64,000 bases of DNA, from the IMG/VR virus record IMGVR_UViG_3300011008_000050; one strand, 5' to 3'. Position 1 is the stretch's first letter, and each line of letters opens with the position of its first letter. The translations under genes and the position numbers were made by a program. Shown here one piece after another: positions 4,799 to 63,777 of this stretch. The notes beneath the pieces are model-generated. The model saw nothing but the letters and a program-made list of their open reading frames with translations. It was not told the origin of the DNA and made no database searches. The stretch comes from an uncultured virus (IMG/VR IMGVR_UViG_3300011008_000050) (Duplodnaviria > Heunggongvirae > Uroviricota > Caudoviricetes).

Positions 4799-7700
4799 AT
4801 GGCGAATGATACGAGGCTGCGCCTGTACAAGGCTCTGAATGATGCTGGTTATGACATTGGCGAGTATGATGAGTTTGACCGCAGGATGAATAATTCCGAT
4901 GACCGAGGCAAATTTTACAAGGCAGTAAGTGATGCGGGTTTTGATATAGGACCGATTGATGAGTTTGATGAGCGCATCAGGGATAGTAAGTATAAGTTGC
5001 TGATTCATGGTGTAGAGACTCCTGTCAGTGAAAAGGAGTGGCGTGAGGCTAAACGGAAAGCAGAGCGCAGGAACACTGGTGGTAATGGGTCTGACAGGAA
5101 ATCCGGGATTCAGGAAGAGGCTGAGCGGTTGCCTGTTGCTCCAACAATGGAGCAGAAGGATATGGAGGCAGCTGTTGGGCTGCGGAAACCTGGTTCCTAT
5201 CCTATTGGAAAGGATGGGCAACTGGATATACATCCTGTTTTGACGCAAAGGAGTGAAAGAATACATCAGCGCGGTATGGAGAATGCGCATGGTGACCTTG
5301 ATACGGAGCGTGAAGTGGAGTTGTCGGAAGCCTACGCAGAGCGCAAGCGACTGGAGAAAGAACTGGAGCCATACACCATGAGACAGGCCAGTCGAATCAT
5401 ACATTCGTCAACCATCCCTGGTGGTTATGCTGGAGGCCATAGTTCAGAAGAACGTGCCGACATGAAGAGACATGATGCCCTTCTTGCAGCCAAACGTCAG
5501 CTTGATGAGCGTATTGCTACACTGGAGGAAAGCCGAGACAAGAACACCAGTGGCTTTTGGCGCAACCTTTGGCGCACCGTCACTAATCCTTCCACCTGGT
5601 CATTCGGACTTATTCCCCTGAATGATGCGCTTGCCAGCAATGATGTGGCAGACAAGTTGGAGAATGGCACAGAACTGAACGAGCAGGAAGAGACCATGCT
5701 TCGGCAGATGGTGATGAATGAAGAGGCCAAGCAGAAGTATGGTGATGATAAGGGCTTCATGGCTCGTGCCGGTACCATTACAGGCGAGGCACTTCCCTTT
5801 GTGGCAGAGTTCCTTCTTACAGGCGGTTATGGTGGCGTTACCAAAGGTGTAGGTGAAGCTACAGCCAAAGGACTTGCAAAGATGACCGCCACAGATTTGT
5901 CGAAGAAAGGCCTTCGGTCATGGTTGGTGAAAAGTACAGGCACGGTGGCTGGTGATGTTGCTGGTGCCACGTTGATGGCGAATACCACAGGAGTGGCGAA
6001 AACGGCATCTGACGTGATGGAGCGGCAGAGAGGCAGCATCATACAGGACGAGAACGGAGATTACCACTTTGGCCACTATGAACAGGACGAAGACGGTAAT
6101 TCTGTCTTTGTTGATGGCGGTAAGACATGGGCGCAGTCCATCTATGAGGCTGAGGCTGCAAACACCCTTGAATATTACACGGAAATGCTTGGCAACCACA
6201 TGGAAAAGCCTTTGGGTGCCGTTGGCTCATGGATAGCCGAAAAGACCGGGCTTGGTAAGGCTGGTGCCTACCTCGTTAAGAAGCTTGGCCTTGGTGAAGT
6301 GAGCAAGGATTTGTCGCAGATTACCGCCAACGGCTACGGCAGAGCCATGAAGCATGTGCTGGAGCGCGGAGGCATTCAGGATTATCCCAGTGAGGTGCTT
6401 GAGGAAGAGGCAAACATCATCCTCAACTCCATGTTTGTAGGTGACAACAGCCTGAGTGATTTAGTGGATGGTCGTACACAGGCCGACATTTGGGGTGGCA
6501 TGTTGTTCTCCGTCGGTTTCATGAATTCCCCGGCTGTTGGTTGGCGTGGCATCCAGTCGGCTGGCTATCTGAAAACGAAACATGACATGGAGAAAGCAGA
6601 CAAGTTGGCATCCTATCGCATGACTGAAGACCGCTGGAAGCCATTGCGTGAGCGTATTGACGGAACCAGCAACGAGGATATGACCGACTTGGAGATGGAA
6701 ATCAAGCATGATGACACCATGCATGAGAATGAGAAGAAAGCCGCGTTGGATTATATCGGTCGCCTGTTGAAGTTCCGTGGTTGGAATATAGGTGCAACTG
6801 CCAAGGCGAAGGATGAGGTTGAGAACCCTGCAGCAGAACCGCAGGGCGCAGTGAGCCGTGATTTGAACGCTTCCTATATTGGTGGCTATGAGGCTGACGA
6901 TGAGCAATTGAATGACATCAGGAATGGTTATGAGTTCCAGCGTCAGCGCATCGAAGAGCTTGCCGCTGATGATATGCTTAACCAGTTGGATGCAGACCCT
7001 ATTGGCGCACTGAATTTTATTCGGAGTGGTGAGGCTTGGACGGAAGAAGAGAAGCAGACCGCCATTGATTATGTTAATGCCAAAGCCGCATACGATGGCA
7101 TGATACACCGTGTTCAGGATGATATTGACGGACGAATCGCCATGAGTGATGCGATGATTGAGAGCCGGAAGCATCATGACGATGGCATGATACATCCGGC
7201 CACCATGAAGACCGATGACAGGAAGGTTTATGTGATTGGTGGCAAGTTGGTGATGAATGAGGATGGCACGATGATAGACCACGACCAGAGTGACGAGAGT
7301 GTTATCATCCGTGATGCCGCGACTGGTGCCATTGAGTTTGCAGACCCTCACGATGTTCTTTCTACAGATGAAGCCCTTGATGCAGCTCAGGAGAAAGAAG
7401 CAGCCCAAGAAGCCATCCGTCAGCAGTATGCCCAGGAAGCCGCCAACAAGATTGACGGTGTTCTTCCTTTCAACAATGGCGATACTTATCAGGTCGTGGA
7501 CGATCAGGGACAGCAGCACACGGTGACGGTCATTCCCACTGGCACGGTCAACTCACAGGGTCAGGTGTTACAGACTGGCGACGGTGAGGTTGTCGTGTCG
7601 ATGGATGGCGGAGAGCCTGTAGCCATGAGCCGCGAGGCCATCCAGAACATGGCTGAGAATGTCAACCTTGCGAGGTTGCAGCAGTATGTACAAGAGAAGG

Positions 7701-10700
7701 CCGTCCAGCGAGAGGAACAGGCAGCAGCGGAGCGTGAAGCAAACAGGCCTGTTTACAACCTCAATGATGAAGTGACCTTGCAGACTGAGGAAGGCATGGT
7801 AAGAGGTTCCATTGCAGCCGAGGCAAACGAAGACGGTCTTATTGAAGTTTATACCGAGCGTCCTATTGGCGGTAAGCAAATCAACCTTTATAACCGTGAC
7901 CAGTTAGACGGAATGGTCGTGGAGCATAACGGAGCAGTGGCAGAGCCACAGCCTGTACAAAACGAGGGTGGCGATGCTGGCGGTGAGGCAGGTCTTGAAC
8001 AGACCGGAGCAAACGAGCCGTCAGCGGCCACTCCATCTACACCCGTCGCCGAGGCAACGGTCACCGTGGATGAGCCTATGCCGATGATTGGCGAAGGTGA
8101 GGATGCCGAACCCGACTTCTCACAGGCCACTCCACAGAGGGCGCACACTTACATCTACAATGAGGCAGGTTTGAGCCGTGACGAGGCCAACCAATTTGTT
8201 GAGGCCAACAGAAAGGCCGCAGACAAGGCGTTGGAGAAAGCGCAGAACGGCAAGCCCAAGATGGGAACGAGCCTTGCCAAGTACAGGAAGGAAACGGCAG
8301 AGTGGCAGCAGAAGGTTGAAGCCGCCCAGCAAGTTTCTGACTACTGGAAGCAAGTCAAGGATGAGCAGGGAAGGGTATTGGCTTCTGAGGCGCAGGAGAG
8401 AGCTGTGCGTGATGCTGCAGCCCATGAGCAAGCCGTTACCCAGGAACAGGCACGTCAGGCCGAGGAATTGCGCAAGCGTGAAGAACAGTCTGCCCTTGGC
8501 ACTCACACTGCCAGTCCAGCCATCCGTGAGAAATGGGAGTCAGCCCATAAGGTTGAAGGTGCAAGGAATGAGATAGTGCTTGCCAATGGTGAGCGAGTAC
8601 CAGGCAGATACGTTCTTGTAGAGAGTGGTGCAGCCACCCCGAGCCACAATCCTCGTCAGGAGTTTGTGAAGAATGAAGGTTTCCCGATGGATGAGAACGG
8701 TCAGAGCGTGAATGACCGTGACTATGAGCGTGACAAGGATGCACAGGCCACTACCCGACAGATTGCTTCTGTATATGACCAGCGAGCCTTGCAGACTCCC
8801 GTCGTTGTCACCAATGACGGTATTGTCCTTTCTGGTAATGGCAGGACGATGGCCGGGGAGCTTGCTGCACAGGACGGAACTGATGGTGCATACATTGAGC
8901 ACCTGAAAAAGTATGGTCGGCAGTTTGGCTTCACTCCTGAACAGATGGAAGGTATGGCGCATCCTCGTGTCGTGTTTGTTCCTGATGAGGCTATGCCCTA
9001 CACAGCAGACACGTTTGCGAAGTTCAACCAGCAGGAGATGAAAGGCCAGTCGAAGACTGAACAGGCCGTTAAGCTTGGTAAGGTTGTCGGCAATGAGACT
9101 TTTGGCCGCATCATCAAGAGCATCAATGCCTATGACACTCTTGGGGAATACTATGCAGACCCTTCAGCCACGACACAGGCCGTCAACGAACTGCGTGATG
9201 CTGGTGCCATCAGTCAGGCGCAGTATGCTGAAATGTTCGATGGCGAGACCATTAGCGCACAAGGCCGCGAGGTTCTTGAAAACATGCTCATTGGCAAAGC
9301 CTTTGAGAGCAACCCTGATGCAGTCCGTCAGATAACGTCTTTCAAGGGTGTTCGTCAGAGCGTCATTACTGCCTTGGCAGAAATCAGCAATAACCTGATG
9401 TTGGGTGAAGACTACAGTCACGAAAGCGAACTGGCCCAGGCTATCAACCTTGTCTATCAAGCCCGTCAGAGTGGCTATAAGCAGGGTGACAAGGTTAGCG
9501 GTTTTGCCCGTCAGCAGAATTTGTTTGCTTTTGACGAGGGTGCCACGGTTGCTGACTTCGACAATGCGACGGTTCTCATGTATGCCGACCTTCTGAACGA
9601 GGGTAGGCCTACTTTGTTGAAGAAAGCCCTTGCTCTCTACAATCAAGCTGCCAAGGACAGTGCCAACGGTCAGTTGGACATCTTTAGCGGTGGTGTGAAG
9701 ACCCAGGAGGAAATACTTTACGACGTAAAACAATTATTGAGAAATGGAACAGAAGAAGAACAACAAGCAGCCCTTGCAGCAGCCACAGCCGAGCGTAAGG
9801 CCGCAGCAGTCTCAGGCATTTCAGAGAATGGCGTTGCTGGCGGAGTCAATCAAGGAGGCGAGGTCACAGGAGGAATTGAACGAACAGATGAAAGGGAAGG
9901 TGATTTGGCGCAGGCCAAAGTAACCGCCCCATTGAGTAATGAAGTCAATGAGTTTGACAAACCGTTTGTCTTATCGTCAGATGGTACACCCACTTTTGGT
10001 GAAGTGACAGAAGACAGTGGTTTGACAGCCGCTCCTATCAAGTTAAGTCTTGGTGAAAACATAGTAGATGAGAACGGATCCAATCATGGTTATGGACTGC
10101 TTCACATCGAAGCTGGACATGGTAATCAGATTCGTGCAGCTGGTTTTGCCTCTGTTGAAGATTTTGTGGAGGCTGTTGCCCGCAACTATGATACAATTCG
10201 AGAAGGAAGTGTTGTTGCTGACAATCAAACGTATCTGTTAGAGGTTTCCGATGAGCATAACAACACCCTGTTTGTTCAGTTGTCGAAAGATGGTGGCTAT
10301 TGGAATGTAAACAGCGCGGGCATTTTCAAGAAGAAATACTCGCGCCGTAAACCTGAAGTCTTTACTCGACCCGCATTAGAGCCTGAAACTAACACCGATT
10401 TCAGTGGAGTTGATAGCGGCCTTTCAAATGGTGTAACCGCGCCAGCAGGAAACTCTCCTCAAACTTCTGCTGGCAAAGGTAGCAACAATAATCCTAACTT
10501 GCAAGAAAAAGCGGAGATTTTTGCTGATGGTCAGGGAAATATGGAGATTGATGGGGGGACTGTGTCACAGCAGCACATTGGGCAGGAGGTAGAAAATGAG
10601 GAAGCCACTGTTGGAGAACCGCAGGTTGAGACCGATGCTGTTGCTATTGCCGAGCGTGAGGTGAACACCAATCCCACCCCTGCACAGAAGGATGCCGGCA

Positions 10701-13700
10701 ACTACAAGAAAGGTCATGTGAAGATTGAAGGCTTTGATGTCACTATTGAGAATCCGCGTGGCTCTGAGCGAAGCGGCACTGATGCCAATGGTCATGAGTG
10801 GCGGCAGAGGATGAATAACACCTATGGCTATATTCGTGGCACAGAAGGTGTGGATGGCGACCATATCGACGTGTTCCTCAGTGACAGCCCTGAGAGTGGC
10901 AATGTGTATGTGATAGACCAACGCAAAGCCGATGGCTCATTTGATGAGCATAAGGTGATGTATGGTTTTGGTAGCGCAGACGAAGCCCGTGCCGCGTATC
11001 TCTCCAACTATGAAGAAGGTTGGCAGGGTCTTGGTGCCATTACCGAGGTAAGCAAGGACGAGTTTAAGAAGTGGATAGATAGCAGCCACAGAAAAACGAA
11101 GCCCTTTGCCGAGTATAAGAGCGTGAAAACGTTGGGTGACACACAACTTGGCGAGGGTGCTGCTGTGGTACAGCAGCCTACGGAACAATCGGAAGAGCCT
11201 CAGCCTGTAGGCCGTGGTGTGTTCGGCAATATCTATGACCAATTCAAGGGCAAGGCCAAGGAAGCCATAGCGTTCCTACGAAAAAGAAAGGAAGGTGTAG
11301 CAAAGGGCGCACTTCATCATCGGCAAGTCGGTGACATTGATGTTGTATGGGGTGACGAGAATCGTGGCCTTGCTCATATTGACAACAAACATACAGATGT
11401 CGCAACTCGCTTGCAAGAAGTTCTCGATGGTATGAGTGTTGTAAGTACTTCCGAAAACCGTATTGTTCTTGATAGCCCCACTCATAGAGCGGTCGTTAGC
11501 AAAGATTGGTATGGTGAACCCGTGGATAACTGGCTACTGACTGCTTACGGAAAAAAGAATGGCGTTTCAGGCGGTAGTATTGACATCGTTCCTGAACCCG
11601 AAGGCAAGCAGAATGGCACAGCTCCTCTGCAAAACGCCAGTCCTTCAAATAGTGTTTCTGCTAATACGACGGACACTAACAGAACCGCTGTTGACGGCAA
11701 GCGGAATGACACTGCTACTCCGCAAAACACTGTTTCTGAGGGCAAAGGTAATGATATTTCTGCATCCGAGCAAGGAAATGCGGAAAAATCTGCTATTGAG
11801 CCAGAATTTGAGGCACGTTATCAGATTTCCCCAAAGCCCTATACTACCAAGCGCGGCAAAGTACTTGATATGCAGTTGGTGATGTTTCCTGACGAATTGA
11901 AAGATAAAGTGAACTGGACTAATGCCCGCCAGTTGGCAAAGGAATTGAAAGGTTGGTGGAGTCGTGAAGACGGTGGTTTCCTGATGCGTGATGCCGAGAC
12001 AGCCCAGCAACTTGCCGACACCGTTCTGTCTCAGATTGGCAACAATGATGCAATGGAGCAGCAACTTCGTGACGAACGCCTTTCGTTGTCGGACATGGCT
12101 CTTGCTACTGACGAGGCACAGAATGTTGAGGCCGTTGATGCACAACAGGAAGCCGATGCATTGACTCAGCAGCCTCCACAAGAGGCGCAGGGAAGTATGG
12201 CAGATAATGGGTACGGTGCCAACAATACTTTGGTGAGCCGTGACCGATACGAGGAATTGAAGGAGCGTATGCGCAAGAAGATGTTGGGACAGCTCAACAT
12301 GGGCATTGACCCTGAAATCCTTGCTATTGGCACAGAAATGGCTGCATTCCATATTGAGGCAGGAGCGAGGAAGTTTGCCGACTTCGCCAAAAAGATGATT
12401 GAAGACCTTGGCGATGCCATCCGTCCATATCTGAAATCCTTCTATAACGGTGCAAGGGAGTTGCCCGAAGTGGGGGATGCAGGGTATAGTGAGGAAATGA
12501 GTCCTTATGATGAGGTAAGGGCGTTTGATGTTCTTTCTCTCGGTGGCGAAACCACCGAGCACAGTACACCAACGGTGTTTGAGAGAGCCGAGGAGGTGAC
12601 AAAGGAACTGGATGCTGAGCGTCAGGCAGAGGAAGCCAAAGAGAAGATTGCGGAGTCGAAGCCTAAGACCACCCCCAACCCACTTCGCCCGGCCACAGAA
12701 GCCGACTTTGACAATGCCCATCCCGTTGTTTACTACGATGGCAAGCCCTACGGTGTTATTGCCGTTATGCATAGTGGTGAGCAGATTAGCGCAACCCAAT
12801 TCAGCCAGCCCCACATAGAAAGTATTGTGCTTACCAATGGCAAGAGTGTGAATCTTGACAATCTGCAAGTTTTTGATGAAGCCACCGCAGCGACCCAAAG
12901 AATACGGGAAATTGCAGAAAAAAACTCGATATCGGAACAAAAACGTGGAAAATCCACGCCATCAAAGAAAAAAAGAGTATCTTTGCAGCAGGAACCCGAC
13001 CTTTTCGGCAACTCCTTCAATGAAGAATCCACAAGTGTAGAATCTCAAAACAAAAACGATAATGATAGACTACGAAGAACTGAAACGGCAGTACGAAGCA
13101 GCCGAGGACAAGGAGAAGGAGCGCCAGCGCCAGCGCAGACTGATAGAGGTGGAGAACTACCGTCGGAGTCTGGAGGCTCGCAACTTCAGCAAGGAGCAGA
13201 TAGACAGGGAAGTGCGGGATTACAAGATAGACGCAGCCCTGATGGATTATCGCAGGGAGAATCAGTTGAGTCCAGGAGAGATGACAACGGAGGACTGGAC
13301 TCAGGTTTACAAGAACGCCGGAATGACGGACGAAGAGATAGCAGCGTACAGGGCAGAGATGAGCAAGTACGCAGCAGCTCTGGACGACCCGTTGGATATG
13401 TATCGCAGTTAACAGAAAATCTTTCAGGAGTGCCTAACGGAGATACACGTGGCTCCGTTAGGCCGGGCAGTTCAAATATTCGACGCAGTGAAAGCGAGAG
13501 AGGCAAAAGTGACGCGCCTCTCTCGCCAGTGAGCAACCCCAAGAACTTACGGAATAACCATGCGGAACGTGGCAAGGACTACGCTCCCCGTGGTGTTGAT
13601 GCCCGCATTGATGCCAACATCAAGGCCATTGAGTTGATGAAACAACTCATGGATAGTGGTGAGCAAGCCACCCCTGAACAGATGGCCGTGTTACGTCAGT

Positions 13701-16700
13701 TCAGCGGTTGGGGTGGTCTTGGCAAGGCCTTTGAGAACTATACCGCCCACACCAACGGCAAGCCTACCCCTCAGTATTTGCGTGAGTTGTTAGGTGAAGA
13801 AGCCTACCAACAGGCCAATATGAGCCGTAATAGTGCCTACTACACCCCTGCCAATGTGATTGATGCCCTTTGGGACGTAGCCCGTGCAATGGGCTTCAAA
13901 GGTGGCAGGGTGCTTGAAGGTAGTGCTGGTATCGGCAATATCCTTGGCCTCATGCCCACCGACATGAGTGAGCGCAGCGACATCCATGCCGTTGAGATAG
14001 ACCCAACGACGGGCAACATCCTTAGTCTGCTCTATCCTGATGCGAAGGTCGATGTGCAGGGTTTTGAGGCGACACAGGTAGAGAACGGCAGTGTCGATTT
14101 GGCTATTACCAATGTTCCGTTTGTCACAGGCTTGCGTGTGAATGACACGACAGGCGACAAAGACCTTAGCAAGAAGTTCCACGACATTCACGACTTCTGT
14201 ATTGCCAAGAATGTGCGTAAGTTGAGAGAGGGCGGCATGGGTATCTTCATCACCTCATCAGGCACACTTGACAACAGCGCGAGACTAAGGCAGTGGATTA
14301 TTCAGGAAGGCGGTGCTGATGTTGTAGGTGCTTTCCGCCTGAACAACGAGACTTTTGGCGGTACTGGTGCCACTTCTGACATTATAGTTATCCGCAAGCG
14401 AGTGAATGGCAAGGTGTCACCCCATGCCATTGACGTACTATCCACCACTGGTGAACGGACAGCCGAGTATGACACAGGGGAGAGCAAGCGCGTGAAGGGT
14501 GAGGAAATCCCCATCATCAAGCAGTTGTCGATGGACTATAACAGTTACTTTGTTGAGCATCCTGAAATGATGGGTGGCGAAATGCACTTCGGCTTTGAGA
14601 AGGGCGAGACATTCAGGCCAACAAGCAAGGCACTCTATCCCGTGAAAGGAAAGAACCAGGCAGAGTTGTTGAAGTCATGGGTAAGTAGTTTTGCAGGTAA
14701 AGAATGGGTGAATGCTGAAACCTCACGGCAGAACCGTGAGGCACACGACGTGGTGTATGAAGAGCTTGGCGAAGGTGTGAAAGAGGGCAGCATGGTTGTG
14801 AGCAATGGCCAGTTGTGCATTGCCCAGCGCGGCAAGGCTGTTCCCTTGGCCGTTAATGCCAACAAGGTTAAGGGTCATAGCAAGGTAGAGTGCTTTGAAG
14901 CCTATCAGGGTATCAAGAAAGCCCTTTCCGACTTGCTCCAGTACCAGACCGACGTTGAGGATGATTCGGGTTTGCAGCCTTTGTTGAAAGCCCTGAATAA
15001 AGCCTACGACGATTTTGTGAAGACCTATGGGCATCTTCACAAGAACACCTCTATCTCCTTCCTAAAGAGTGACGTTGATTTTGCCAACATCCTTGCTTTG
15101 GAGAAATTCAGCGAGAGAGGCGACTTGAAGACAGGTAAGCGCATACAGGAGTTTGGCAAAACCGACATCTTCAGTCAGCGAGTTGTGGAAAAGGAGAAAG
15201 CTCCAGAACCAACCAACGTGAAAGATGGTATCATTGCCAGTATCTATGTTTATGGTAGGGTTGATGTTCCTTGGATAACGGAGCAACTCAGCGGCAAAAC
15301 TGCTGAGCACACTACGCTCACAGAGGACGATGTGAAAGCCGAGATTGTCAGGTCTGGACTTGGCTTTGAAAATCCCGTCACCCGTCAGATGGAAGTGAGT
15401 TATGAGTATCTGAGTGGCAATGTGCGTGAGAAGTTGGCACAAGCTACCCAGAATAACAGCAACGGCCAGTATGATGCCAACATCAAGGCACTGGAGAAAG
15501 TGATTCCTGACAACATTCCTGCCCACCTTATCGACTTTAGCATTGGTTCCTCATGGATAGACCCCAAGTTGTACGAGGAATATGTGAAGGAGAAAACCGA
15601 CATTGACGTTACCTTCACTTCTGCTGGTGGCACATGGTTCATGCGGACACCTTACTCTGTTAGTGAACAGAAGAACCGTGCGATGGGTGTTGTGAGTGAA
15701 TTGCTTCACAAGACCATCATGGGTACGCAACTCATTGAAGCCGCCATGCAGAACAAGACCATCACCGTTAGCGAGACGCACAAGAAATGGGATGGCAGTA
15801 CCGAGACCATCACCGACAAGGAAGCCACGCAAGCCTGTTCCAACAAGATAGACGAGATACGTCAGGACTTCAAGGAGTGGGCAAGAGCGAAGATGCAAAG
15901 TGACCCTGCCATGAGTGAGCATATTGAGCGTATCTATAATGACATGTTCAATAATTATGCGCCCATGAAGATTGAGGATACTTTTGTTCCTATTCATTTT
16001 GCTGGTGCCAGCAAGAAGATAACCCTTGACCCTCATCAGAGTCATGCCGCGATGCGTGCCGTTTTGCAGCCCGTGATGCTTGCGCATGAAGTTGGTGCTG
16101 GCAAGACTTTCACGTTGATAACAGCTGCGATGGAAATGCGCCGCCTTGGTACAGCAAAGAAGCCCATGATAGTTGTACAAAATGCAACAGTCGGACAGTT
16201 TGTTGAGAGTGCCAAGGAGTTGTACCTAAGTGCCAAGGTGTTGACTATTGAAGAAGCAGACCGCACGGCAGAGGGCAGAAAGAACTTCTATGCCAAAATC
16301 AAGTATAATGATTGGGACATGATAGTTGTACCTCAGAGTGTCTTTGAGCGTATTCCTGACAGTGAAGAGCGTCAGATGAAGTTCGTTCAGGATAAGATTG
16401 AGGAAAAGATGCTGGTGCTGGAGCAGATGCGCGATGCCGACCCTGACAGCAGCAGTTGGATTGTGAAGCAAGCCGAGAAGGAAATCAACAAGTTGGAAGA
16501 CGAGTTGGCCGGCCTGACGGATTCCATCAGCAGCAAGCGCAAGGAGCGTGACGAGAAGAAAGAGGCCGTGACCCGTCAGAATGCCGAGGTGAAAGCGTTG
16601 GAAATGCTCGACCGTCAGACCGACGATGTTGAAAACTTCGATGATATGGGCATTGATGCCATCTTGGTAGATGAAGCCCACGAATATAAGCACCTTGGCT

Positions 16701-19700
16701 TTGCCACAGCTATGCAGCGAGGCGTGAAGGGTGTTGACCCCTCTTATAGCAAGAAGGCGCAGGGTGTCTATTTGAAGACTCAGGCCGTGTTGGAAAAGAA
16801 CAACGGTCGTAATGTTGTTTTTGCTACTGGCACCCCCATCAGCAACACCGCAGCCGAGATCTGGACTTTCATGCGTTACTTGATGCCAGCCGACACGATG
16901 AAGGAATACGGCATCTATTATTTCGATGATTTTGTGAGGAACTTCGGCAACCTTCAACAAATGCTTGAGTTTACGACAAGCGGAAAGTTCAAGGAGAGTA
17001 ACAGGTTTGCAGGTTATGTGAATCTTCCTGAGCTTGTGCGTATCTGGGCAGGTGTTGCGGACACTATGACTCAGAAGGAGATTGAGGAATACAGGAAAAA
17101 GATGGGTAAGCCAACGAAGATTCCGCGCACCGAATTGTTATATGACAATGGCGACAACAAGGCCGAAGACATCTATCTGCCTCAGACGAGAGCTTTACGC
17201 AGTGTGATGAAGTATGTCAAGAAGAGGTTGGATGATTTTGACAAGATGAGCGGCAAGGAGAAGAAGGAAAACAGCCACATTCCTTTGACGATGTACGGTA
17301 TTGCTAAGGCAGCAGCCGTTGATGCCCGTTTGGTTGTGAGTGATGCAGCCGACGAACCTCAGAGCAAGACCAATGAAGCCGTGCGTCAGACTCTACGTAG
17401 CCTCCGCGAAACGGAGTCCTACAGCGGAACGGTTGCCCTGTTTGCCGACAATTATCAGAACAAGAAGAGTGGCTTCAACCTCTATGAAGACATCCGTGAG
17501 AAACTGATAGCGCAGGGCGTTCCAGCTGAGCAGATTGTTGTCATGAAGAGCGGCATGAGCGTTAAGAAAAAGCTGGAAATCTTTGACAAGGTGAACCGTG
17601 GCGAGATTCGTGTCATTATGGGCAGTACCTTTACGCTTGGCACTGGTGTGAACATACAGGAGCGTTTGCACACCCTCATTCATTTGGATGCCCCTAACCG
17701 TCCTATGGACTATACACAGCGCAATGGCCGTATCTTGCGACAGGGCAACTTACATAAAGAAATGGGCAAGCCTGTGAGAGTGTTGCGTTTTGGTGTTGAG
17801 GATAGTTTGGACGTGACCGCCTATCAGCGTTTGAAGACGAAGGGAGCCATTGCCGACAGCATCATGAATGGCAAACAGATGATGAGCAATTCGATGGAGA
17901 ACCGTGTACTGGAAGAGGAAGAAGATGTTTTTGGTGATACCGTTGCGCAGTTGTCCGGATCTGAGTATGCCATGCTGAAGAACCAGGCCGAGAAAGACGT
18001 TCGCAAGTATGAGGCCAAGAAGAAGCAGTACCAGGCCGACCAAACGTATTGCCACAATGAGATTCCACGGTTAGATGGTGAAATCAGGGCATGGAAAGAG
18101 CGGTTAGACAAGTACCGCAAGAACCTTGCTATTGTTGAGGCCGTGCCTCAACATACAGAACCTTCTATTACCGTAGGCAAGCAGACCTTCCCATCTATTG
18201 AGGCAATGGCCGACTTCATCAAGGAATATAACAAGAGCATCAAGGAAGCCGAGAACGATCTGAGGGACAATCCATCATTGCACTCACAGACCCGTCGGCT
18301 GACGGTGAATGTCGGTGGCATTGACTTTGTGTTTACTACAGAGCAGAATGTAGAGACCAAGGAAGACCAAGGCACCCTGTTCAGTGCTGTTCGCAGGAAG
18401 ATGACCTATTCCTGTGAAGCCCTTGGCCTTACCGATGTTCCTGTTCGCCAGTCTTTGCTCCGTGAAGGTCTTGAAGACATTGTGAAGAATGTTATCAGTG
18501 GTCAGGACTTCCGCGAGGGCATTGAGCGTAGTGAGCGTATCATTGATAAGAATGAGAAGTCTCTCGCCCAAGTCCGTGAACGTCATGGTAAGCCGTTTGA
18601 GTTTGAAAAGGAACTGGAACAGGCACATGAGCGTTTTGACGAATATTCCGAGTTGATGAAGAAGGAACTGGAAGAGAAAGAAAAGAAGTATGCCGAAATG
18701 GATGCCGATGTGGAGGACGTTGATGTTAATGAAGCTGCAGAGGTTGAGGATGAGGATACGGTAGGTGATGAAGATGTGCGGTTCAAGGATGGCGGAGGAC
18801 GTGATGAAGGTGTGGCGCAGGTGCGCAGACGTTTTGACGAGCTTAACAGTCAGTATTCTGGTAAGGCATTTGATGTTGTTGTGCTGGATGAGTTGTCGGA
18901 TGATGAGGTGCTGGATTTGCTTGGTGCTACAGCAGAGGAAAGGGAAGAAATCACTCCAGAAGAAGTTGAAAAGGTAAGAGATTGGTTAAAGAATGGAAAA
19001 AGATATGCTTCTTATAATTCTTTGACAGGAAAAATCATTATCTTTGCCGACAAAGTTCCAGAAGGTAAGGAAGAGGAGGCTTTCTTCCACGAGAATATTC
19101 ATGGTGTACTGCGTGACTTGTATGGTGATGGTGTGCGCCCTGTAGCAGAACTTTTCTGGGAGATAGCCCCTGATAATGGCCTTGTGAGCCGGGACTTTGT
19201 CAAACGAAACTACGAGTCTGCCAAGCAGAAGGAAGAGTATTTCGTTTACTGGCTTAGCCGTGCTATGGTAAAAGGCCGTGTAGATGAGGAACTTGATTTG
19301 CTTGGCAAAGAAGAAACTAATATAAAAGACTATGGACAAGGAACAGAAGAAAATGGAGAAGCCAATCGACCCGAGGTACAGGAAGAAGAAGTCGGAAACT
19401 CTTCTGGAATGGGTTCAGAGACTGGAGAAAGACGGCGTGATAGAGTTCTTCGGGGAGTTCGATTAGAATCCAGTTCTGTCAGAGGAATCAGGGATGTTGT
19501 AGTCGGCATTCTTAATTCAATTGGCTATGAGCCGTCACTGGAGGCAGAGCGTCGGTTGGATATGGATAGCGGCGTTAATTCTGCCACAGGCATTCCTGGC
19601 GGAGCATTGAGCCGTTTGGCTGGTTCTTATGAGCCGAGGACAGCGACTCGGCGTTATACACGGGCTGAGCAGTCGGCTTACGTGGAGCGTAAGCTGAAGC

Positions 19701-22700
19701 AGTTGCGGCGTGCAGCCACGGAACTGGTAGAAAAGCTGGGTCTAACCGGGCGTGTAACTATTCTTGATTCGGACGAAGGTCTGGGTAAGCGTTATCAAGG
19801 CAAACGCGGCTGGTATGATGAAAAGAAGGGCACGATAACCGTTGTGCTGGGTAATCATAGTGGTAAACTCGACGTATTGGAGACTGTGCTGCATGAAGGT
19901 GTGGCGCATTATGGTCTGCGTAGGTTGTTCGGTAGGAACTTTGACCAGTTCCTGGATAATGTGTTTGAGGCTGCTGAACCTGATGTGAGAGCACGGATTG
20001 TCAAGTTGGCAACAAGGCATAAGTGGGACTTCAGAATAGCTACTGAAGAGTATCTTGCTGATTTGGCTGAACGGATTGATTATAATGCTGTAGATAATGT
20101 GATGTTTGGCTGGTGGACGAGCATCAAGCGCATGTTCTTTAAGATGCTTGGCAAACTTGGCCTGAAAGATTTTGCAGATACGGGTATTGAACTGTCGGAT
20201 AATGAGCTTCGTTATATTCTCTGGCGGAGTTATCAGAATCTGGCGGAGCCTGGAAGATACAGAAATCCTTTCTCTGTGGCTAAGGATATGGATATGCAGC
20301 TGCGGTTAGGTGTGAGCAGCTATGACAAGGAACGTGCGCGGATACATAGTCTTGGCCGTATAGATGACAGTAGCAGGGTATTGGCAAATGCCGTTGCAGA
20401 AGGTGGAAACTTTGTGGCAGAACCACAGAGCACAGTGTTACGGTTCAGTGGCGGTGACCTGGAGGATGTAAATGCAAGATTCAATGAGCAGTTGGCTAAC
20501 TTTACTTTGGCTTCATCAGACGATTATGTGTTTGATTTGGGCTCACCTTCTTTACCTTTACTTGCTGCAGGGGTTGAGGATAAGCCTATTCGTCTTTATG
20601 GAAGCAAGGTTGCCGCGAAGATGAGAAAGCATGGCTTCAATGCTTCTGAACTTCGTGATTTACCATACGCAGTTGCGCATCCTATTGCTGTTTTTGACAA
20701 CTTAGGTAGAATCGGTAACCGTTCTGTTTTAACGGAGTTGCAAAAAGAGCGGGGTAATATCCTTGTAACAATAGATATTGGTAAAGGGACAGATGTTGAT
20801 TTTGACATTGTCAGCAGTGTGTTTGGCAAACGTGGCAGCAGTGTTGTTGAATGGATTAACAAAGGTTTTCTCCGATTTGTAGATAAAGAAAAAGCCCTGA
20901 ACTATTTGCACCTCTCCGCACCAATCGCGGAAGCCTCAAATAATCCAGAGCTTAATTCTGCGGCAAAGGTAGTGGAAGAGTTTGAGAATCCCAAACTTTT
21001 TGAGGAAAATCTTTCGGAGGATAGTAAAAAAGGTGGTGTTTTGTTCCGTGATGGCGATGGTGACTTCTCAGAGCGTGACCGTGCCATTGCCCGTGACCGT
21101 TATGAGAAGATGGTGTCCGAAGGTCTTTACCAGTTCCAAGAAGCGGTACAGGACTCCATGCTTGGCCTGAAGAAGCTCTATGATGCCATTCTTACTCCGA
21201 AAGGCAAGGTACACATGGAAGATGTTGAAGGCTACGAAAATGCCTATCTTGCGGAGAACAGGATGAGCAGTGTCAATGCAGCCGAGCAGCACGACTACTA
21301 TTTGCGGTTCATGCAACCTTTGTTGGAAGAGATTGGCAAGCTTACGAAACCCGCTGGCAAAACCAGCGGACACAGTAACGCCGCCCGCATTGCCTTGACC
21401 GATTACATGATGGCCAAGCATGGACTGGAGCGTAACAGGGTGTTTGCCGAGCGTGATGCCCGTGAGGTAGAGGCCAATGGTGGCGACTTTAACGAAGCCT
21501 ATCAGAATTTTAGGGAAAAGGACTATTCAGGTCTTACCGCCTTGACAGGTGAAAATGATGTCCTTGCAGCCGAGGATGCAGCCCAGCAGATAGTCGATGA
21601 TTACGAAGCTGCCTATGATACTGCCGACCTTTGGGATAGAACCCGTGAGGCCACACATGCCACACTGGAAAAGATATACCGAAGCGGTCTGTTGAGCAAG
21701 GAACGTTATGAGCAGATACGTGACATGTTCCAGTATTACATCCCCCTGCAAGGTTGGGACGAAACAACCAGTGATGAGGTGTACGGCTATCTTACGAGCA
21801 AGAGCGGCCCCTTTGGTGGCAGTCCCATCAAACATGCCGTAGGCCGTAGCAGCAAGGCCGACGACCCTGTTGCGACTATCGCCATGATGGCCGATGCCGC
21901 CATCCGTCAGGGCAACCGTAACCTGATGAAGCAGCGTTTCCTTAACTTTGTGCTGAATCATCCGAGTGACTTGGTGAGTGTTCGTGACCTTTGGCTGGAA
22001 TACGATGCTGTAGCCGATGAATGGGTTCCTGTATTTGCCGATATTGAAGACGGTGACACCGCAGCCGATGTTGAGCGCAAGGTGGAAGCGTTTGAGCAGC
22101 GCATGGAGCAACTTGCCGAGGCTGAGCCAGACCGTTACAAACGAGGCCGTGATGCACAGAGCATCCCCTATAAGGTAGTGAAAGGTAACATGAAAGAGCA
22201 TCAAGTATTGGTGAAGCGAGGTGGACGCACATACGTACTGACCATCAACGGCAATCCCCGTGCCGCCCAGGCATTGAACGGTCTGACCAATCCCGATGTG
22301 GAGCAAGGCGGTGCTGTCGGCAAGTTGCTGAAAGCCGGTGAATGGGTGAACCGTCACCTGAGTGCCTTCTATACGACCCGCTACCCCGATTTTGTTGTGA
22401 GTAACTTCTTCCGTGACATGCTTTATAGCAACTGCATGACATGGGTTAAGGAGAGTCCACGCTATGCCTTGCGCTATCACAAGAACTTCGGCATGGTAGC
22501 CAATCCCGTCATGATGAGAAGACTTCTTGGGAAATGGGAGCATGGCACACTCGACAGAAACAAACGGCTTGAAGAAATGTTCTACCAGTTCATGATGAAT
22601 GGCGGTGAGACAGGCTACACCAGTGTCCGTGACATCGAGGAACACAAGCGGGAGATTGCGAAGGAGTTGAAGAAGCAAGGCAGCATGAGCCGCAAAGCAT

Positions 22701-26712: not shown

Positions 26713-28860
26713 TTATATTGTTGCGGCAGATACCGCCTTTTTCCTTTTGTGGTTGACAGGTTGCCGTGGTTTCTTGATGATGCGAGGCAAGTCCATTTCG
26801 TGGTAGCATATCTGCATACCGATGGCACGTGTCATGAGTCGGTCATCGTGGTAGCCTTCCATCGCCTCAAATCCTCCTTTCTCATTCTCGATGTATGTAA
26901 GGTATTCATTGAGGCACTCTTCTTCACGTTCGACATAGAGGTGTTCACGTACAATGGCCTTCAGGTTGTGGATGATAACCTTCTTCGTGAGCGGGTTTGT
27001 GTGGAATCCGTATTTTCTTGGCACTCCCTCGCGTATGTCTTCCGCACTCTGCTTTCGTGCGTAGAGTTGATCACCGTAAACATCGTGGATGAGCGTAAGG
27101 ATATACTCAGCCTCGCCCTTTGTGTTGTTGGTTTCAAGGGTATTGCTCTCAATGACCAGCAGCGCATTGTTATAGTATGCCGCTACCTGTGCAGCCTTCC
27201 ATGCCAGTTTATCCATGTCGATGTGTCCGTGCCATTCAGCAATGACGGAAGGCGGTTCTGCATCCATCATATATATACGGTCAATGACAAGAATGTCTGC
27301 AAAGTCTGCTTTCTCTGTCTGTCCCTTGCATACATCGACAATGACGAGGTATCGGTCAATGACTTCTTCCTCTTCATCCTTTTCAACATCTTGCCACATC
27401 CAAAAGCGGCCGTTTTCCTCTTTTCTGAATCGTAGGTTTTGCAATGCCTCTTCGCCTTCGTCTGCACGACCGTATATTTCCCCCTTCCATTTAGGAGGCT
27501 TACAAGCGTGCCGGAACTGCTCCACATCTTCATTTGCAAACACCCTACGACCTGAGAATGTGAACGCCTCGATGTCGTTTGACGGGTATTCCGAAGCCAT
27601 GTCTGCATGAGACGAATACTTTGACCTCTCCTGAATGTACCAATTGATGGCCTCCAGTGTTGCGCCCTGCTGCCACAGGCTCCAAAGGTATGTACCCGGC
27701 TGTTCACGGTCAGAGTTTGCAACCTCGTTGTGACGGTTGTTGTAGAGCCAGGCAGCGAAGGCCTCAACGGGTGATAACCCGACGGGCAAACCGCCTGGCA
27801 CACTTTCCGCTGTGATGGGTGCTGCATACTGCTCAATCTCGTACCATGCAACGAACATTGCTTCAAACTGGCTCTTTCCCAGTTTTGCCGCAAGATATTC
27901 CTTATGGAAGAAGTTTCCTGTGCCGTTAGCCGTTGACTCATATACAATCATGGTGTAAGGCTTCAGGAGAATACCCGAACATGCGGAGCGCACAATCTGC
28001 TCAGGTGTCTTGCCGTCGGTCTTTTTCCATAGCCCGACCTCTGTGCAGTGTACCAGGTTGTAGTCACCACCACGGGCAGAGTCAGGCTTCTCGGCGGTTC
28101 CAATCTTGATTTTGCAATTTCGTTGTGGTATTCGGTGTATGTTTCCGCTGTTTCCAACCCCTACCAGTTTCGCCTCGTTCTCGTTGTATTCCTCCCCCAA
28201 CTTGTATAACATTTCGGTTGGGTATGCCTTAATCATGCGGTCGAACATGTCCTTTACCTCATTGGAGGCATCCTTGACGTGACCGACGATGAGGGAGTTG
28301 AGGCCGACTTTGTGTATGAGTTGCAGCCATGCCATGTAGATTTGCGTAGCCGTAGAGCCACCCCACTGACGAGCCTTTAGCAGAATAAGACGAATAGGCT
28401 TTCCGGCCAGCCTCATCTTCTCGAATCGTGCAATCAGCTTCCGTTGTGGCCTATTGAGCCGGAAATGCACATCTTCACCCCCTCCCTTGTTTTTAATGAA
28501 GACGTAGAGAGCCGCCCAAAAGGCAAAGTCGTATCTGCATCTGATACGCACAAGTTGCTCAACAACCTTGTGATGCTCTTCGTCTGTGACCTCTGCCCCC
28601 ATATCTTCCAGCCATTGGTCTATAGAACCAGCCTCTACGATTTGCCGCACCAACGGCACTTGCATCATTTGCTTTGGTATGTACTGAACAGGAAGGTTGA
28701 AGTCTGCTATTTCAATCTTCACCCTTTCTCCTATAGAGCCTTCTCCCGTGATGGGATTGAACTTGGCACATACCAGCGCATTGCGACGTTGGTTTTCGGC
28801 TATGATGTGTTTAATCTCGGCGGCAAAACCGCCAGACACACTACTTTCTACTGTTGACAT
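26713..28860 (-). CDS. terL: Terminase large subunit
   Basis: LKARQWGGST Walker A, HCTEVG Walker B variant, YESTANG motif III, nuclease domain VDV...D and HDDRLM. Confidence 0.92.
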   Translation of the reverse strand: MSTVESSVSGGFAAEIKHIIAENQRRNALVCAKFNPITGEGSIGERVKIEIADFNLPVQYIPKQMMQVPLVRQIVEAGSIDQWLEDMGAEVTDEEHHKVVEQLVRIRCRYDFAFWAALYVFIKNKGGGEDVHFRLNRPQRKLIARFEKMRLAGKPIRLILLKARQWGGSTATQIYMAWLQLIHKVGLNSLIVGHVKDASNEVKDMFDRMIKAYPTEMLYKLGEEYNENEAKLVGVGNSGNIHRIPQRNCKIKIGTAEKPDSARGGDYNLVHCTEVGLWKKTDGKTPEQIVRSACSGILLKPYTMIVYESTANGTGNFFHKEYLAAKLGKSQFEAMFVAWYEIEQYAAPITAESVPGGLPVGLSPVEAFAAWLYNNRHNEVANSDREQPGTYLWSLWQQGATLEAINWYIQERSKYSSHADMASEYPSNDIEAFTFSGRRVFANEDVEQFRHACKPPKWKGEIYGRADEGEEALQNLRFRKEENGRFWMWQDVEKDEEEEVIDRYLVIVDVCKGQTEKADFADILVIDRIYMMDAEPPSVIAEWHGHIDMDKLAWKAAQVAAYYNNALLVIESNTLETNNTKGEAEYILTLIHDVYGDQLYARKQSAEDIREGVPRKYGFHTNPLTKKVIIHNLKAIVREHLYVEREEECLNEYLTYIENEKGGFEAMEGYHDDRLMTRAIGMQICYHEMDLPRIIKKPRQPVNHKRKKAVSAATI

Positions 28861-29410
28861 GGTGAGCGGGGGAGTTGAGGAAGCCGACCAACAGCCCGGC
28901 AACGTAGCAGTAGATGTGTATGGTGTTATTGGGCGTGGCTATGGCATAGCCGCATACGGAACAGATGGGTGGCAGCGTGAATCCAATAGCGATGAAGGAT
29001 AATACCCATGTATGGAAAAGGCGTTTGTGTTTGACCTGAAATGCAATCTGCCCGAGCAGGGAGAAACAAACGGCAGAGAGGCCTACGGTGGGAACGTCGG
29101 CGACAAAACCGCCGAACACACTGCTGGTGGTGTCGATAGGGAAGGTGACGGCAGTGATGTAGGCAATGATGAGTGATGAGATGGAAATGTCGTAGATGAA
29201 GACGATGGAAAGCAGACACCAACAATTGATGAGTGCATGAGGCATGGATGCATGGAAGAAAGAATAGGTGAGCCGTGCAAATATGGGACAACCCTTATAG
29301 ATGGCGACATCAGCGAGTGGAAACCTCGCTGCCCACTGAACAGCCGAAAGCAAGAGGCAGATGACCGTCAGAATAAGTGTCGTAGTTTTCGTTTTCTTTC
29401 TTCGTACCAT
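28841..29410 (-). CDS. Rhomboid-family intramembrane serine protease
   Basis: Multiple TM segments; FFHA...HALIN, VGLS (GxS) and the late H in NNTIHIY. Confidence 0.7.
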   Translation of the reverse strand: MVRRKKTKTTTLILTVICLLLSAVQWAARFPLADVAIYKGCPIFARLTYSFFHASMPHALINCWCLLSIVFIYDISISSLIIAYITAVTFPIDTTSSVFGGFVADVPTVGLSAVCFSLLGQIAFQVKHKRLFHTWVLSFIAIGFTLPPICSVCGYAIATPNNTIHIYCYVAGLLVGFLNSPAHHVNSRK

Positions 29411-29802: not shown

Positions 29803-29861
29803 GGCTTTTGTTGACATGGTGGCAAAACCGTCATTCACTTTGCAAAGATAGTGGAAACGAC

Positions 29862-29906
29862 GGTTAATAGATAAAAGTGAGAAATGGTAAATGGTGCTTA
29901 TCTTTG
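29862..29906 (+). promoter_or_regulatory. Promoter of scaffold/capsid operon with 17-bp upstream box
   Basis: GGTTAATAGATAAAAGT-N20-TATCTTTG. Confidence 0.7.
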
Positions 29907-29937
29907 CCATGAAAAATTTACAAAACCATTATTATAT

Positions 29938-41828: not shown

Positions 41829-42009
41829 GGTCGCTATAAGATAGCGACATACGGAACAGAAATATGAGATAATCAGAAACAAGAATAACAGACAAGTTCA
41901 TAGGCTATTCGTCTTGTGTCCGTAGGCCATGAGAAAAACAAAAGATGCTTGTTGGCTTTGCGTAAGTGATTCCTTCATTCCATCGTGATAGGTGATAGCC
42001 GATAGACGG

Positions 42010-42195
42010 ATTTTCTTGCCTGCTGCTGGCAACTACAATGGTACGTCGCTCAACAATCGTGGTTCCAACGGGAACTACTGGTCTGCCTCGTTCAACAATA
42101 GTTCCAACGCATACAACTTGAACTTCAATAGTTCGAATGTCAATCCGCAGAACAACAACAATCGGTACTATGGTTTCTCGGTTCGTGCTGTTCAG
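42010..42195 (+). ncRNA. DGR template repeat (TR)
   Basis: AAC/AAT-rich 186-bp copy of both VRs upstream of RT; followed by a divergent IMH*-like end and hairpin GTTGCGGC-AAT-GCCGCAAC (42215-42233). Confidence 0.97.
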
Positions 42196-42249
42196 CACTC
42201 GTCTGTAGGGAATGGTTGCGGCAATGCCGCAACATACAAGACAAAGGAT

Positions 42250-54124: not shown

Positions 54125-54224
54125 GATTCATTCTTCTTGCATCCCCGCCTCGCCCTCTTGGGGAGGGCGGTGGCTGGGGAGCGAAGAAGAATGGTGTCCG
54201 TTCTGATGGGGAACAGACAAGTTA
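54125..54224 (-). promoter_or_regulatory. IMH-adjacent sequence plus DGR retrohoming hairpin (copy 2)
   Basis: Reverse complement matches 41122-41222 except for a 1-nt indel. Confidence 0.85.
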
Positions 54225-63156: not shown

Positions 63157-63257
63157 TTGTGGGAAGCGGCGGAATCGAACCGCCGTCCGAAAAGAAGCTT
63201 TTTGAAACTGAAACACAAAACTCTTGAACAGGACCTGCTTCTTTCGCCGTTCTTCCC
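63157..63257 (-). ncRNA. tRNA-like/tmRNA-TLD-like element
   Basis: GGGAAG...long stem CGAAAGAAGC/GCTTCTTTTCG...GGAC-GGCGG-TTCGATT-CCGCC-GCTTCCC-A. Confidence 0.45.
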
Positions 63258-63700: not shown

Positions 63701-63777
63701 TGGTGAATGGGGCAGGAGTCGAACCTGCTGTTTGCGGCTTAGGGTGCCGCAGCTCCATCCGTAGGAGTTCCCCATCC
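63701..63777 (-). tRNA. Atypical tRNA, anticodon CCT (Arg-like)
   Basis: GGATGGG GA ACTC CTACGGATG GAGC T GCGGC ACCCTAA GCCGC AAACA GCAGG TTCGACT CCTGC CCCATTC A CCA. Full cloverleaf, but lacks U8 and U33. Confidence 0.6.

What the first reader, a model, noticed from the sequence alone, without database searches (positions are those of the whole stretch)
10474..20995. Three antisense promoters inside the giant gene, each right after an RNase-like domain
Seen: - strand (T)TTG-N20-TACCTTTG at 10474-10504, 11743-11773 and 20964-20995, with identical spacing. Each lies just 3' of a PBECR/MuF-C-like segment (domain calls by motif recognition). Inference: host-sigma antisense RNAs cover the toxin-like domain coding regions, either silencing leaky expression in the lysogen or acting as RNA antitoxins carried along when the domains were captured.
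Basis: partly seen in the sequence, partly recalled or inferred. Interest (0 to 1): 0.7.

Follow-up and report, generated by a model that had tools for sequence, protein, structure and literature searches.

The report
Hidden antisense RNAs guard phage RNases
Behind each predicted RNA-cutting domain of a giant phage protein lies, on the opposite DNA strand, a small folded RNA gene, sometimes shaped like a tRNA, which probably binds and blocks that enzyme in the cell that makes it.

Summary
The three motifs are real Bacteroidota sigma-A promoter matches on the - strand (3 seen, 0.05 expected). Each follows a BECR-fold RNase-like domain (PBECR1/3-like, PBECR1, MuF-C) of a 6,433-aa phage polyvalent protein. 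They do not cover the domains. Each heads a 65-115 nt structured RNA that overlaps the linker and ends at the domain's last codons; site 2 holds two units.

The cassette is general: 205 of 213 homologous domains carry the box, against 5 of 117 control domains. Stems covary, third codon positions are constrained, and the promoter type changes with the host phylum. In Mu-like phages the RNA lies after the stop codon and is a degenerate tRNA. It is present with the putative catalytic His (32 of 33) and absent without it (0 of 16). Two PBECR2 genes with a protein partner (DUF2283) lack it.

Best reading (0.62): a cognate RNA inhibitor, a tRNA-shaped decoy, that travels in-frame with each RNase module. 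It would work like a type III antitoxin but is not a member. Transcription, RNase activity and binding are inferred, not shown. I found no description in the searched literature or Rfam.

The parts
4799..24100 (+). Giant polyvalent protein gene, 6,433 aa (ddrB-ParB, PBECR-like, InPase, PBECR1, SNF2-type helicase, MuF_C, LPD38; methylase and metallopeptidase motifs by eye), upstream of the portal gene of a temperate Bacteroidales-type phage
10010..10339 (+). Domain 1: PBECR1/PBECR3-like BECR domain (GLLHIEAGH...NVNSAG); no direct Pfam hit
   Evidence: AlphaFold model poor (pLDDT 50.8)
10474..10504 (-). Promoter 1 (TTG-N20-TACCTTTG)
10355..10467 (-). RNA 1, about 113 nt (ends inferred): multi-branch fold with a loop-loop kiss (ACACC/GGUGU) and a pseudoknot (CCUGC/GCGGG)
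   Evidence: 11 sequences, 91.9% of cells paired, 11 of 26 pairs with two-sided change; single-sequence z only 0.58
11207..11560 (+). Domain 2: PBECR1 with N-terminal FGNIYDQF extension; conserved His and Thr
11743..11773 (-). Promoter 2
11651..11733 (-). RNA 2 unit A (promoter-proximal, extra copy of another subtype; no domain of its own)
   Evidence: z -3.03
11551..11641 (-). RNA 2 unit B (domain-proximal, cognate subtype) plus U-run: four-way junction whose two 13-nt loops pair with each other
   Evidence: single-sequence z 0.09
20612..20893 (+). Domain 3: MuF_C (RKHGF...IVSS)
20964..20995 (-). Promoter 3 (TTTG-N20-TACCTTTG)
20886..20957 (-). RNA 3: 17-bp stem, internal loop, 6-bp apical stem-loop, U-run
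   Evidence: z -5.85; 49 sequences, 88.3% paired, 21 of 23 pairs with two-sided change

Best explanation
Each BECR RNase module of the phage protein carries its own inhibitor gene. A host housekeeping promoter on the opposite strand drives a short, compact RNA. The RNA binds the cognate nuclease as a substrate look-alike: a degenerate tRNA in Mu-like phages, a tRNA-sized junction or long hairpin here. This keeps the enzyme quiet in the lysogen and while the giant protein is made and packaged. In a newly infected cell without the RNA the enzyme would act, probably on tRNA. Because the RNA gene is written antisense into a tolerant linker, domain and inhibitor move and duplicate as one in-frame cassette, which a separate protein immunity gene could not do. 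Extra RNA units, such as unit A, would give immunity to related nucleases of rival phages. Shown here by comparison: the promoter-domain linkage, RNA-level selection, covarying structures, tRNA likeness in the Mu-like clade, and joint presence or absence with the His. Inferred: transcription, RNase activity and target, virion delivery (proposed for PBECR proteins in PMC5512222), binding and inhibition.
For: (1) Antisense -7 box within 230 nt after 13 of 14, 118 of 123 and 74 of 76 non-redundant homologs of domains 1-3, against 5 of 117 control domains. It occurs in all three frames for PBECR1. (2) 32 of 53 further antisense promoters follow PBECR1/2/3, MuF_C, LPD3 or LPD13. (3) Covariation, with 0 of 500 shuffles reaching the paired fraction. 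(4) Fourfold third-base identity is 0.66-0.76 in linkers and 0.35-0.40 in domain cores, while amino-acid identity is lower in linkers. G-U exceeds A-C in the stems (96 vs 15, 151 vs 41), which points to the antisense strand. (5) The promoter type follows the host: TGnTAnAAT-type in Campylobacterota, sigma70-like -10 in Proteobacteria. (6) Mu-like MuF: the RNA lies after the stop codon and matches Rfam tRNA in 12 of 16 His+ loci and 0 of 4 His- loci. It is present in 32 of 33 His+ and 0 of 16 His- proteins, over 2-3 independent changes. Mu gpF, called inactive in PMC5512222, has none. (7) Two PBECR2 genes with an overlapping DUF2283 gene lack the RNA. (8) Top structural neighbours of the PBECR1 model are CdiA and colicin D RNase toxins (weak Z 4.2-5.1; their tRNA specificity partly recalled). 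(9) 11 extra RNA copies without a cognate domain, all on the - strand, 10 with a -7 box downstream.
Against: No transcript was observed, and no PBECR domain has been shown to cut RNA in the papers I saw. Ralstonia phage YO088 MuF keeps the His, but I saw no RNA. The His/RNA correlation rests on only 2-3 independent events, and the C-terminal tree forces only 1. Domain-RNA class agreement (82 of 91) is also expected from physical linkage. Inside ORFs the RNA is perfectly complementary to the mRNA, so pairing can occur. RNA 1 and unit B are not unusually stable on their own (z 0.58, 0.09), and 4 of 9 post-stop PBECR2 segments have z above -2. No window RNA matches Rfam tRNA. Structural matches are all Z under 8. 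Loss of the RNA along with the His also fits a cofactor model.
Confidence: 0.62

Rival explanations
1. The RNA is a working partner or cargo, not a brake. The domain binds or processes it, and the ribonucleoprotein acts in the new host, for example as a tRNA decoy against host anticodon nucleases or as a specificity factor for the nuclease.
For: tRNA D- and T-loop motifs are kept while the anticodon arm varies. The RNA is lost together with the His. Each domain family has its own RNA.
Against: The promoters are housekeeping-type, not late-phage-type, which suits steady supply in the producer cell. The RNA is absent where a protein partner gene is present. Extra copies without a domain suit immunity. 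No guide-like variable segment was seen; the variable parts are helix lengths.
Confidence: 0.2
2. Cis-antisense control: the RNAs or their transcription lower expression of the giant mRNA by duplex formation, RNase III cleavage or polymerase collision.
For: Perfect complementarity to the linker mRNA. Stem-loop antisense RNAs are known (CopA/CopT, recalled). Antisense promoters are enriched in these ORFs, 210 vs 26 on the sense strand.
Against: The RNAs do not reach the domain or any ribosome-binding site. One copy would do, yet there is one per RNase domain (4-5 in some genes) and almost none after other domains. They persist after stop codons. Loop-loop helices and tRNA motifs are conserved from Bacteroidota to Bordetella and Pseudomonas phages, which pairing does not need.
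Confidence: 0.13
3. Relics: each domain was captured with its old intergenic terminator and convergent promoter, and these are now neutral linker DNA.
For: Linkers are low-confidence in the model (pLDDT under 50 for residues 123-131), and similar elements are intergenic in other phages.
Against: Third-position constraint, compensatory changes, strand bias and host-matched promoter turnover show ongoing selection.
Confidence: 0.05

Closest known systems
Type III toxin-antitoxin systems (ToxIN, CptIN, TenpIN; PMC3401426, passages)
   Same: An endoribonuclease paired with a small structured, pseudoknot-bearing RNA from a constitutive promoter; occasional tandem units.
   Different: Type III: repeat array, terminator and toxin gene in one sense operon, with a MazF/Kid-related toxin. 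Here: the RNA is downstream and antisense, usually single, often inside the ORF, with a BECR nuclease domain in a large structural-region protein. Inhibition is not shown here.
PBECR domains of phage polyvalent proteins (Iyer et al. 2017, PMC5512222, passages)
   Same: The domains and the host protein architecture are these.
   Different: The main text has 0 hits for antisense, ncRNA or promoter and names no inhibitor in the passages seen. It suggests mRNA or crRNA targets, whereas the tRNA-like partners point to tRNA.
Polymorphic toxin/immunity pairs (CdiA/CdiI, colicin D/ImmD, MuF toxins; recalled, structures)
   Same: BECR RNase followed by a convergent or adjacent cognate element; orphan extra copies.
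   Different: The element is an RNA gene on the opposite strand, not a protein gene.
Type I toxin-antitoxin / cis-antisense RNAs
   Same: Antisense promoter and short RNA overlapping the toxin locus.
   Different: The toxin is not a small peptide. The RNA lies 3' of the toxic domain and is under selection for tertiary structure.
tRNA, pseudo-tRNA, allo-tRNA (RF00005; RefSeq tRNA-OTHER; PMC5389517, passages)
   Same: Mu-like members score above the Rfam tRNA cut-off and are labelled tRNA-OTHER in RefSeq. Irregular tRNAs near toxin-antitoxin genes were noted in PMC5389517.
   Different: No link to MuF or BECR domains was seen in those passages. The window's RNAs do not match tRNA models.

Membership tests
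Bacteroidota sigma-A promoter | -7 TAnnTTTG with TTTG-like element near -33 | tested here: met
   full TTTG only at site 3, TTG at sites 1 and 2
Bacteroidota sigma-A promoter | Transcription start a few nt downstream | tested here: inconclusive
   contigs only, low share, no strand or ends
PBECR / MuF-C | Profile match | tested here: met
   domains 2 and 3 above Pfam cut-off
PBECR / MuF-C | Profile match, domain 1 | tested here: inconclusive
   no direct hit; homologs below cut-off; Atlas 0.93; hhalign to domain 2 probability 2%
PBECR / MuF-C | His in N-terminal helix and C-terminal Thr/Ser | tested here: met
   His motif in 124 of 127 PBECR1 and 66 of 75 MuF-C by regex
PBECR / MuF-C | RNase activity | not testable with these tools
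   predicted only (PMC5512222)
Type III toxin-antitoxin | Tandem repeat array and terminator upstream of the toxin, same strand | tested here: not met
   RNA is downstream and antisense, mostly single
Type III toxin-antitoxin | ToxN/CptN/TenpN-family toxin or Rfam antitoxin match | tested here: not met
   Pfam assigns PBECR1 and MuF_C; no Rfam hit
Type III toxin-antitoxin | Pseudoknotted RNA | tested here: met
   loop-loop and pseudoknot helices in RNAs 1 and 2 (several of these pairs are invariant); RNA 3 is a plain hairpin
Type III toxin-antitoxin | RNA binds and inhibits the toxin protein | not testable with these tools
   indirect only
Type I toxin-antitoxin | Small (<60 aa) toxin | tested here: not met
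   100-130 aa domains in a 6,433-aa ORF
Type I toxin-antitoxin | Antisense RNA overlapping the toxin mRNA | tested here: met
   overlaps the linker or the 3' region, not the domain
tRNA (RF00005) | Covariance-model or ARAGORN match, window RNAs | tested here: not met
tRNA (RF00005) | Covariance-model match, Mu-like partner RNAs | tested here: met
   11 of 16 His+ loci at or above the cut-off and L226; ARAGORN found none in L225/L226; no encoded CCA seen

The most novel reading that the evidence does not exclude
A widespread, undescribed class of RNA immunity genes: tRNA-derived or tRNA-shaped decoys written antisense into or just after the coding sequence of phage BECR tRNases (PBECR1-3, MuF-C, LPD3, LPD13). 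They make each nuclease-inhibitor pair a shuffle-ready in-frame module of virion-delivered proteins, with orphan RNAs giving immunity to rival phages. Many tRNA-OTHER annotations in Mu-like prophages would be these inhibitors.
Probability: 0.5. Interest if true: 0.93.

Novelty: categorically new. Interest (0 to 1): 0.86.

Why it matters
PBECR domains are common in phage polyvalent and MuF proteins, but in the papers I saw they have no known target and no known way of sparing the producer cell. A cognate RNA after nearly every His-bearing domain sampled supplies both a likely inhibitor and a clue to the substrate (tRNA). It makes the family testable with a 100-130 aa domain and a 70-110 nt RNA. 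It points to several new RNA folds hidden inside coding sequence, where intergenic screens would miss them. It suggests a role for the tRNA-OTHER genes beside MuF in Mu-like E. coli prophages (the locus matches 230 of 5,426 genomes). It also marks LPD3 and LPD13 as probable RNases.

Tried and rejected
RNA-seq: 3 runs were found, all kept as contigs; the two RNA runs hold 6% of the words, so they say nothing on strand, ends or level. Rfam: no match in the window or in 15 homologous loci, apart from one chance hit. Foldseek on the PBECR1 model: no hit at E <= 0.001. The domain-1 model was too poor to search. hhalign between the three domains was uninformative. The generic sigma70/terminator scan of the gene was at chance level and does not list the three RNAs. 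A protein-motif explanation was rejected (frames differ; third positions constrained). The fourth promoter-like match at 11386 and TACCTTTG at 27683 were rejected (no structure). Whole-genome family searches gave little: MuF_C 3 of 301, PBECR4 0 of 201, so PBECR4/5 and Bacillota are untested, and the phylum of those genome samples is not told. tblastn found no MuF-C match in named phages with domain 3 and no PBECR1 in plasmids. The idea that RNA 3's apical loop is an anticodon was dropped: it varies widely and is trivially the complement of an in-frame codon. Earlier scan notes: nothing. Literature searches with no description of this cassette: (open PMC and bioRxiv only; supplements not read).
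Full report
SETTING. The window is a temperate phage of Bacteroidales type: an integrase-like gene, a 6,433-aa ORF at 4799-24100, portal, capsid and a reverse transcriptase. The host type is inferred from the promoters and from homologs in Bacteroidales assemblies. The giant ORF is a polyvalent protein with ddrB-ParB, InPase, PBECR1, SNF2-type helicase, MuF_C and LPD38 domains. No host genome is held. The nearest virus record is identical over site 2 and may be the same source.

THE OBSERVATION. The three motifs are as stated: 3 matches against 0.05 expected. They fit the Bacteroidota sigma-A consensus (PMC7366714, passages) and lie in two reading frames. Site 2 follows PBECR1 and site 3 follows MuF_C. 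The site-1 domain is PBECR1/3-like on weaker evidence.

A FAIR TEST IN HOMOLOGS. I collected loci by protein similarity, built profiles of the domain cores without the linkers, and looked downstream. Of 281 domain hits, 43 duplicates, 11 partial and 10 truncated hits were dropped. Of the remaining 217, 206 have the antisense -7 box within 330 nt. The same stretch has a sense-strand box in 13 of 217, and the 330 nt upstream have an antisense box in 38 of 202. Offsets cluster near 134-152, 80-135 and 64-73 nt for domains 1, 2 and 3, and PBECR1 uses all three frames (80/30/9). Leaving out four non-Bacteroidota phages and using 230 nt, the counts are 13 of 14, 118 of 123 and 74 of 76. Eight control domains of the same protein give 5 of 117, all InPase and at scattered offsets. 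The Bacteroidota misses have one-base promoter variants and keep the RNA. These counts include the window's own sites and related phages, so they are not independent draws. Across ORFs of 700 aa or more there are 210 full antisense promoters and 26 sense ones. 144 follow domains 1-3 and 12 lay too near an ORF start to examine. Of 53 others sent to Pfam, 32 follow PBECR1, PBECR2, PBECR3, MuF_C, LPD3 or LPD13 (my count from the table), most with a family-specific RNA closed by a long stem.

WHAT IS TRANSCRIBED (INFERRED). Each promoter heads a compact RNA whose closing stem ends at the domain's last codons. A U-run follows directly at sites 2 and 3 and about 20 nt later at site 1. RNA 3 is a long hairpin (z -5.85); over 49 sequences 88.3% of cells pair, and 21 of 23 pairs show two-sided change. 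RNA 2 has two units. Over 41 sequences, including Bordetella phage BPP-1 and Pseudomonas phage Itty13, 91.5% pair and 19 of 23 pairs change on both sides. Two 13-nt loops pair with each other in one register (helices 81.7% and 100% paired), giving a four-way junction with a loop-loop contact. RNA 1 has a loop-loop kiss and a pseudoknot (11 sequences, 91.9%; several of these tertiary pairs are invariant and so uninformative). I drew these structures by hand from the alignments, which favours them over the slid controls. RNA 1 and unit B are not unusually stable as single sequences. Independent of any structure, fourfold third-base identity is 0.66-0.76 in the linkers and 0.35-0.40 in the domain cores, while amino-acid identity is lower in the linkers. 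G-U pairs outnumber A-C by 96:15 and 151:41, and the antisense strand folds better in 148 of 172 cassettes. The RNA, not the peptide, is under selection, and on the - strand.

THE PROMOTER FOLLOWS THE HOST. Ten PBECR1 domains in Helicobacter and Campylobacter phages are followed by TGnTAnAAT-type extended -10 matches at about 80-180 nt. Across seven such gene regions there are 37 antisense and 8 sense matches, some clearly chance in AT-rich DNA. BPP-1, Itty13, PBC5, BcepMigl, phiE058 and a Rhizobium phage have sigma70-like -10 boxes at the same place (read by regex or by eye, without a chance control). In a Campylobacter phage and the Rhizobium phage the RNA lies after the stop codon.

THE MU-LIKE TEST. 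PMC5512222 calls the MuF-C domain of phage Mu inactive (passages). Mu and Shewanella MuM16-1 lack the His-bearing segment, and the next gene abuts. Relatives that keep the His have a gap of about 120 nt holding an antisense promoter and an RNA with tRNA D-loop and T-loop motifs, a variable anticodon arm and no encoded CCA. One scores above the Rfam tRNA cut-off, and RefSeq labels many of them tRNA-OTHER (the locus matches 230 of 5,426 E. coli genomes). Among 49 non-redundant MuF ends from 76 loci (5 not parsed), 33 keep the His. Of these, 30 match the T-loop pattern, 2 have a one-base variant and 1 is an interrupted gene. None of the 16 His-less ends has the RNA. Rfam on 20 of these loci hit tRNA in 12 of 16 His+ and 0 of 4 His-. 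A tree of 18 rows needs 3 changes on the N-terminal part (2 forced) and 2 on the C-terminal part (1 forced), so this is a few events, not 49. Ralstonia phage YO088 is an exception: His kept, no RNA seen. In a sample of 301 genomes, 12 PBECR2 matches were found. The two with an overlapping DUF2283 gene (its antitoxin role is recalled) have no structured antisense segment. Of nine others ending in a stop codon, 5 have z below -2 and 4 do not.

EXTRA COPIES. Sequence profiles found 181 cognate and 11 extra RNA copies, all on the - strand. Window unit A resembles another subtype (82% to L147, 81% to L144), while unit B resembles the RNAs of most of the closest domains. L134 carries a near copy of window RNA 1 with its own promoter behind a different domain; L190 carries one with no recognised domain. 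Some genes hold 3-5 domain-RNA cassettes, each with a different RNA. These extras may be immunity or remnants of domain deletions.

MECHANISM. The PBECR1 model (pLDDT 79.6) has CdiA toxins, BrnT and the colicin D tRNase domain as top neighbours, at weak Z of 4.2-5.1. An RNA that accompanies His-bearing nucleases, is missing where the His is lost or a protein partner exists, resembles tRNA in one clade, and is made from housekeeping promoters is most simply an inhibitor that mimics the substrate (0.62). A cofactor or cargo role (0.20) fits much of the same data. Antisense silencing (0.13) explains neither the one-per-RNase placement, nor the post-stop copies, nor the conserved tertiary motifs. 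Transcription was not observed, and activity and binding cannot be tested here.

KNOWN SYSTEMS AND NOVELTY. It would work like a type III antitoxin, but it fails the defining arrangement and toxin family (PMC3401426, passages). The window RNAs match no Rfam family. PBECR1 is named in one paper of the library, whose main text has no hit for antisense, ncRNA or promoter. PMC5389517 (passages) notes irregular tRNAs near toxin-antitoxin genes; the passages seen do not mention MuF. Other papers were seen only as search listings. Nine searches found no description. Subscription papers and supplements were not seen, and RNA-motif screens may list some of these RNAs in tables. I rate it categorically new as an arrangement and as a set of RNAs. 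If inhibition is confirmed, it is a functional analogue of type III systems.

Noticed in passing
window 41992-43629 (+), 35197-41124 (+), 54222-54818 (-): Reverse transcriptase beside a 1,975-aa gene ending in an Lcl_C/Fib_succ_major-like domain, which looks like a diversity-generating retroelement; a second gene with the same C-terminal domain type lies far away on the other strand. Template and variable repeats were not checked.
   Followed up: no
window 63159-63243 (-), 63701-63777 (-): ARAGORN calls a tRNA-SeC-like gene (TCA) and tRNA-Arg(CCT); Rfam listed neither at its cut-off, so both may be irregular.
   Followed up: no
window 28841-29410 (-), 26713-28902 (-), 29842-29907: A rhomboid-like gene and a 729-aa orphan gene run against the structural genes, behind a divergent pair of Bacteroidota -7 boxes; possibly a lysogen-expressed cargo cassette.
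   Followed up: no
window 30863-32620 (+): Major capsid protein with a C-terminal Fn3-associated / CHB_HEX_C domain.
   Followed up: no
L052, L136, L139, L140, L147, L155, L205 (LPD13); L119, L148, L155, L163, L166, L175, L186, L202, L217 (LPD3): LPD3 and LPD13, of unknown function, carry the same antisense promoter and RNA cassette; LPD13 weakly hits PBECR2. They are probably BECR RNases.
   Followed up: partly
L231:651-731, L232:651-735 (E. coli Mu-like prophages): RefSeq tRNA-OTHER genes sit antisense right after His-bearing MuF genes.
   Followed up: yes
L205:10542-10632, L206:10167-10255, L173:2944-3009: RNA units persist beside frameshifted or truncated PBECR1 domains, or outside any ORF.
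   Followed up: no
L136:9696, L141:12740, L156:12363, L190:9447, L207:14415: Promoter plus structured antisense RNA in giant ORFs with no recognised RNase domain upstream, i.e. orphan RNAs.
   Followed up: partly
L139, L140, L146, L147, L160, L169, L172, L182, L190: Bacteroidota-type prophage contigs filed in assemblies titled as Firmicutes, Treponemataceae or Gastranaerophilales; they keep Bacteroidota promoters and are probably misbinned.
   Followed up: no
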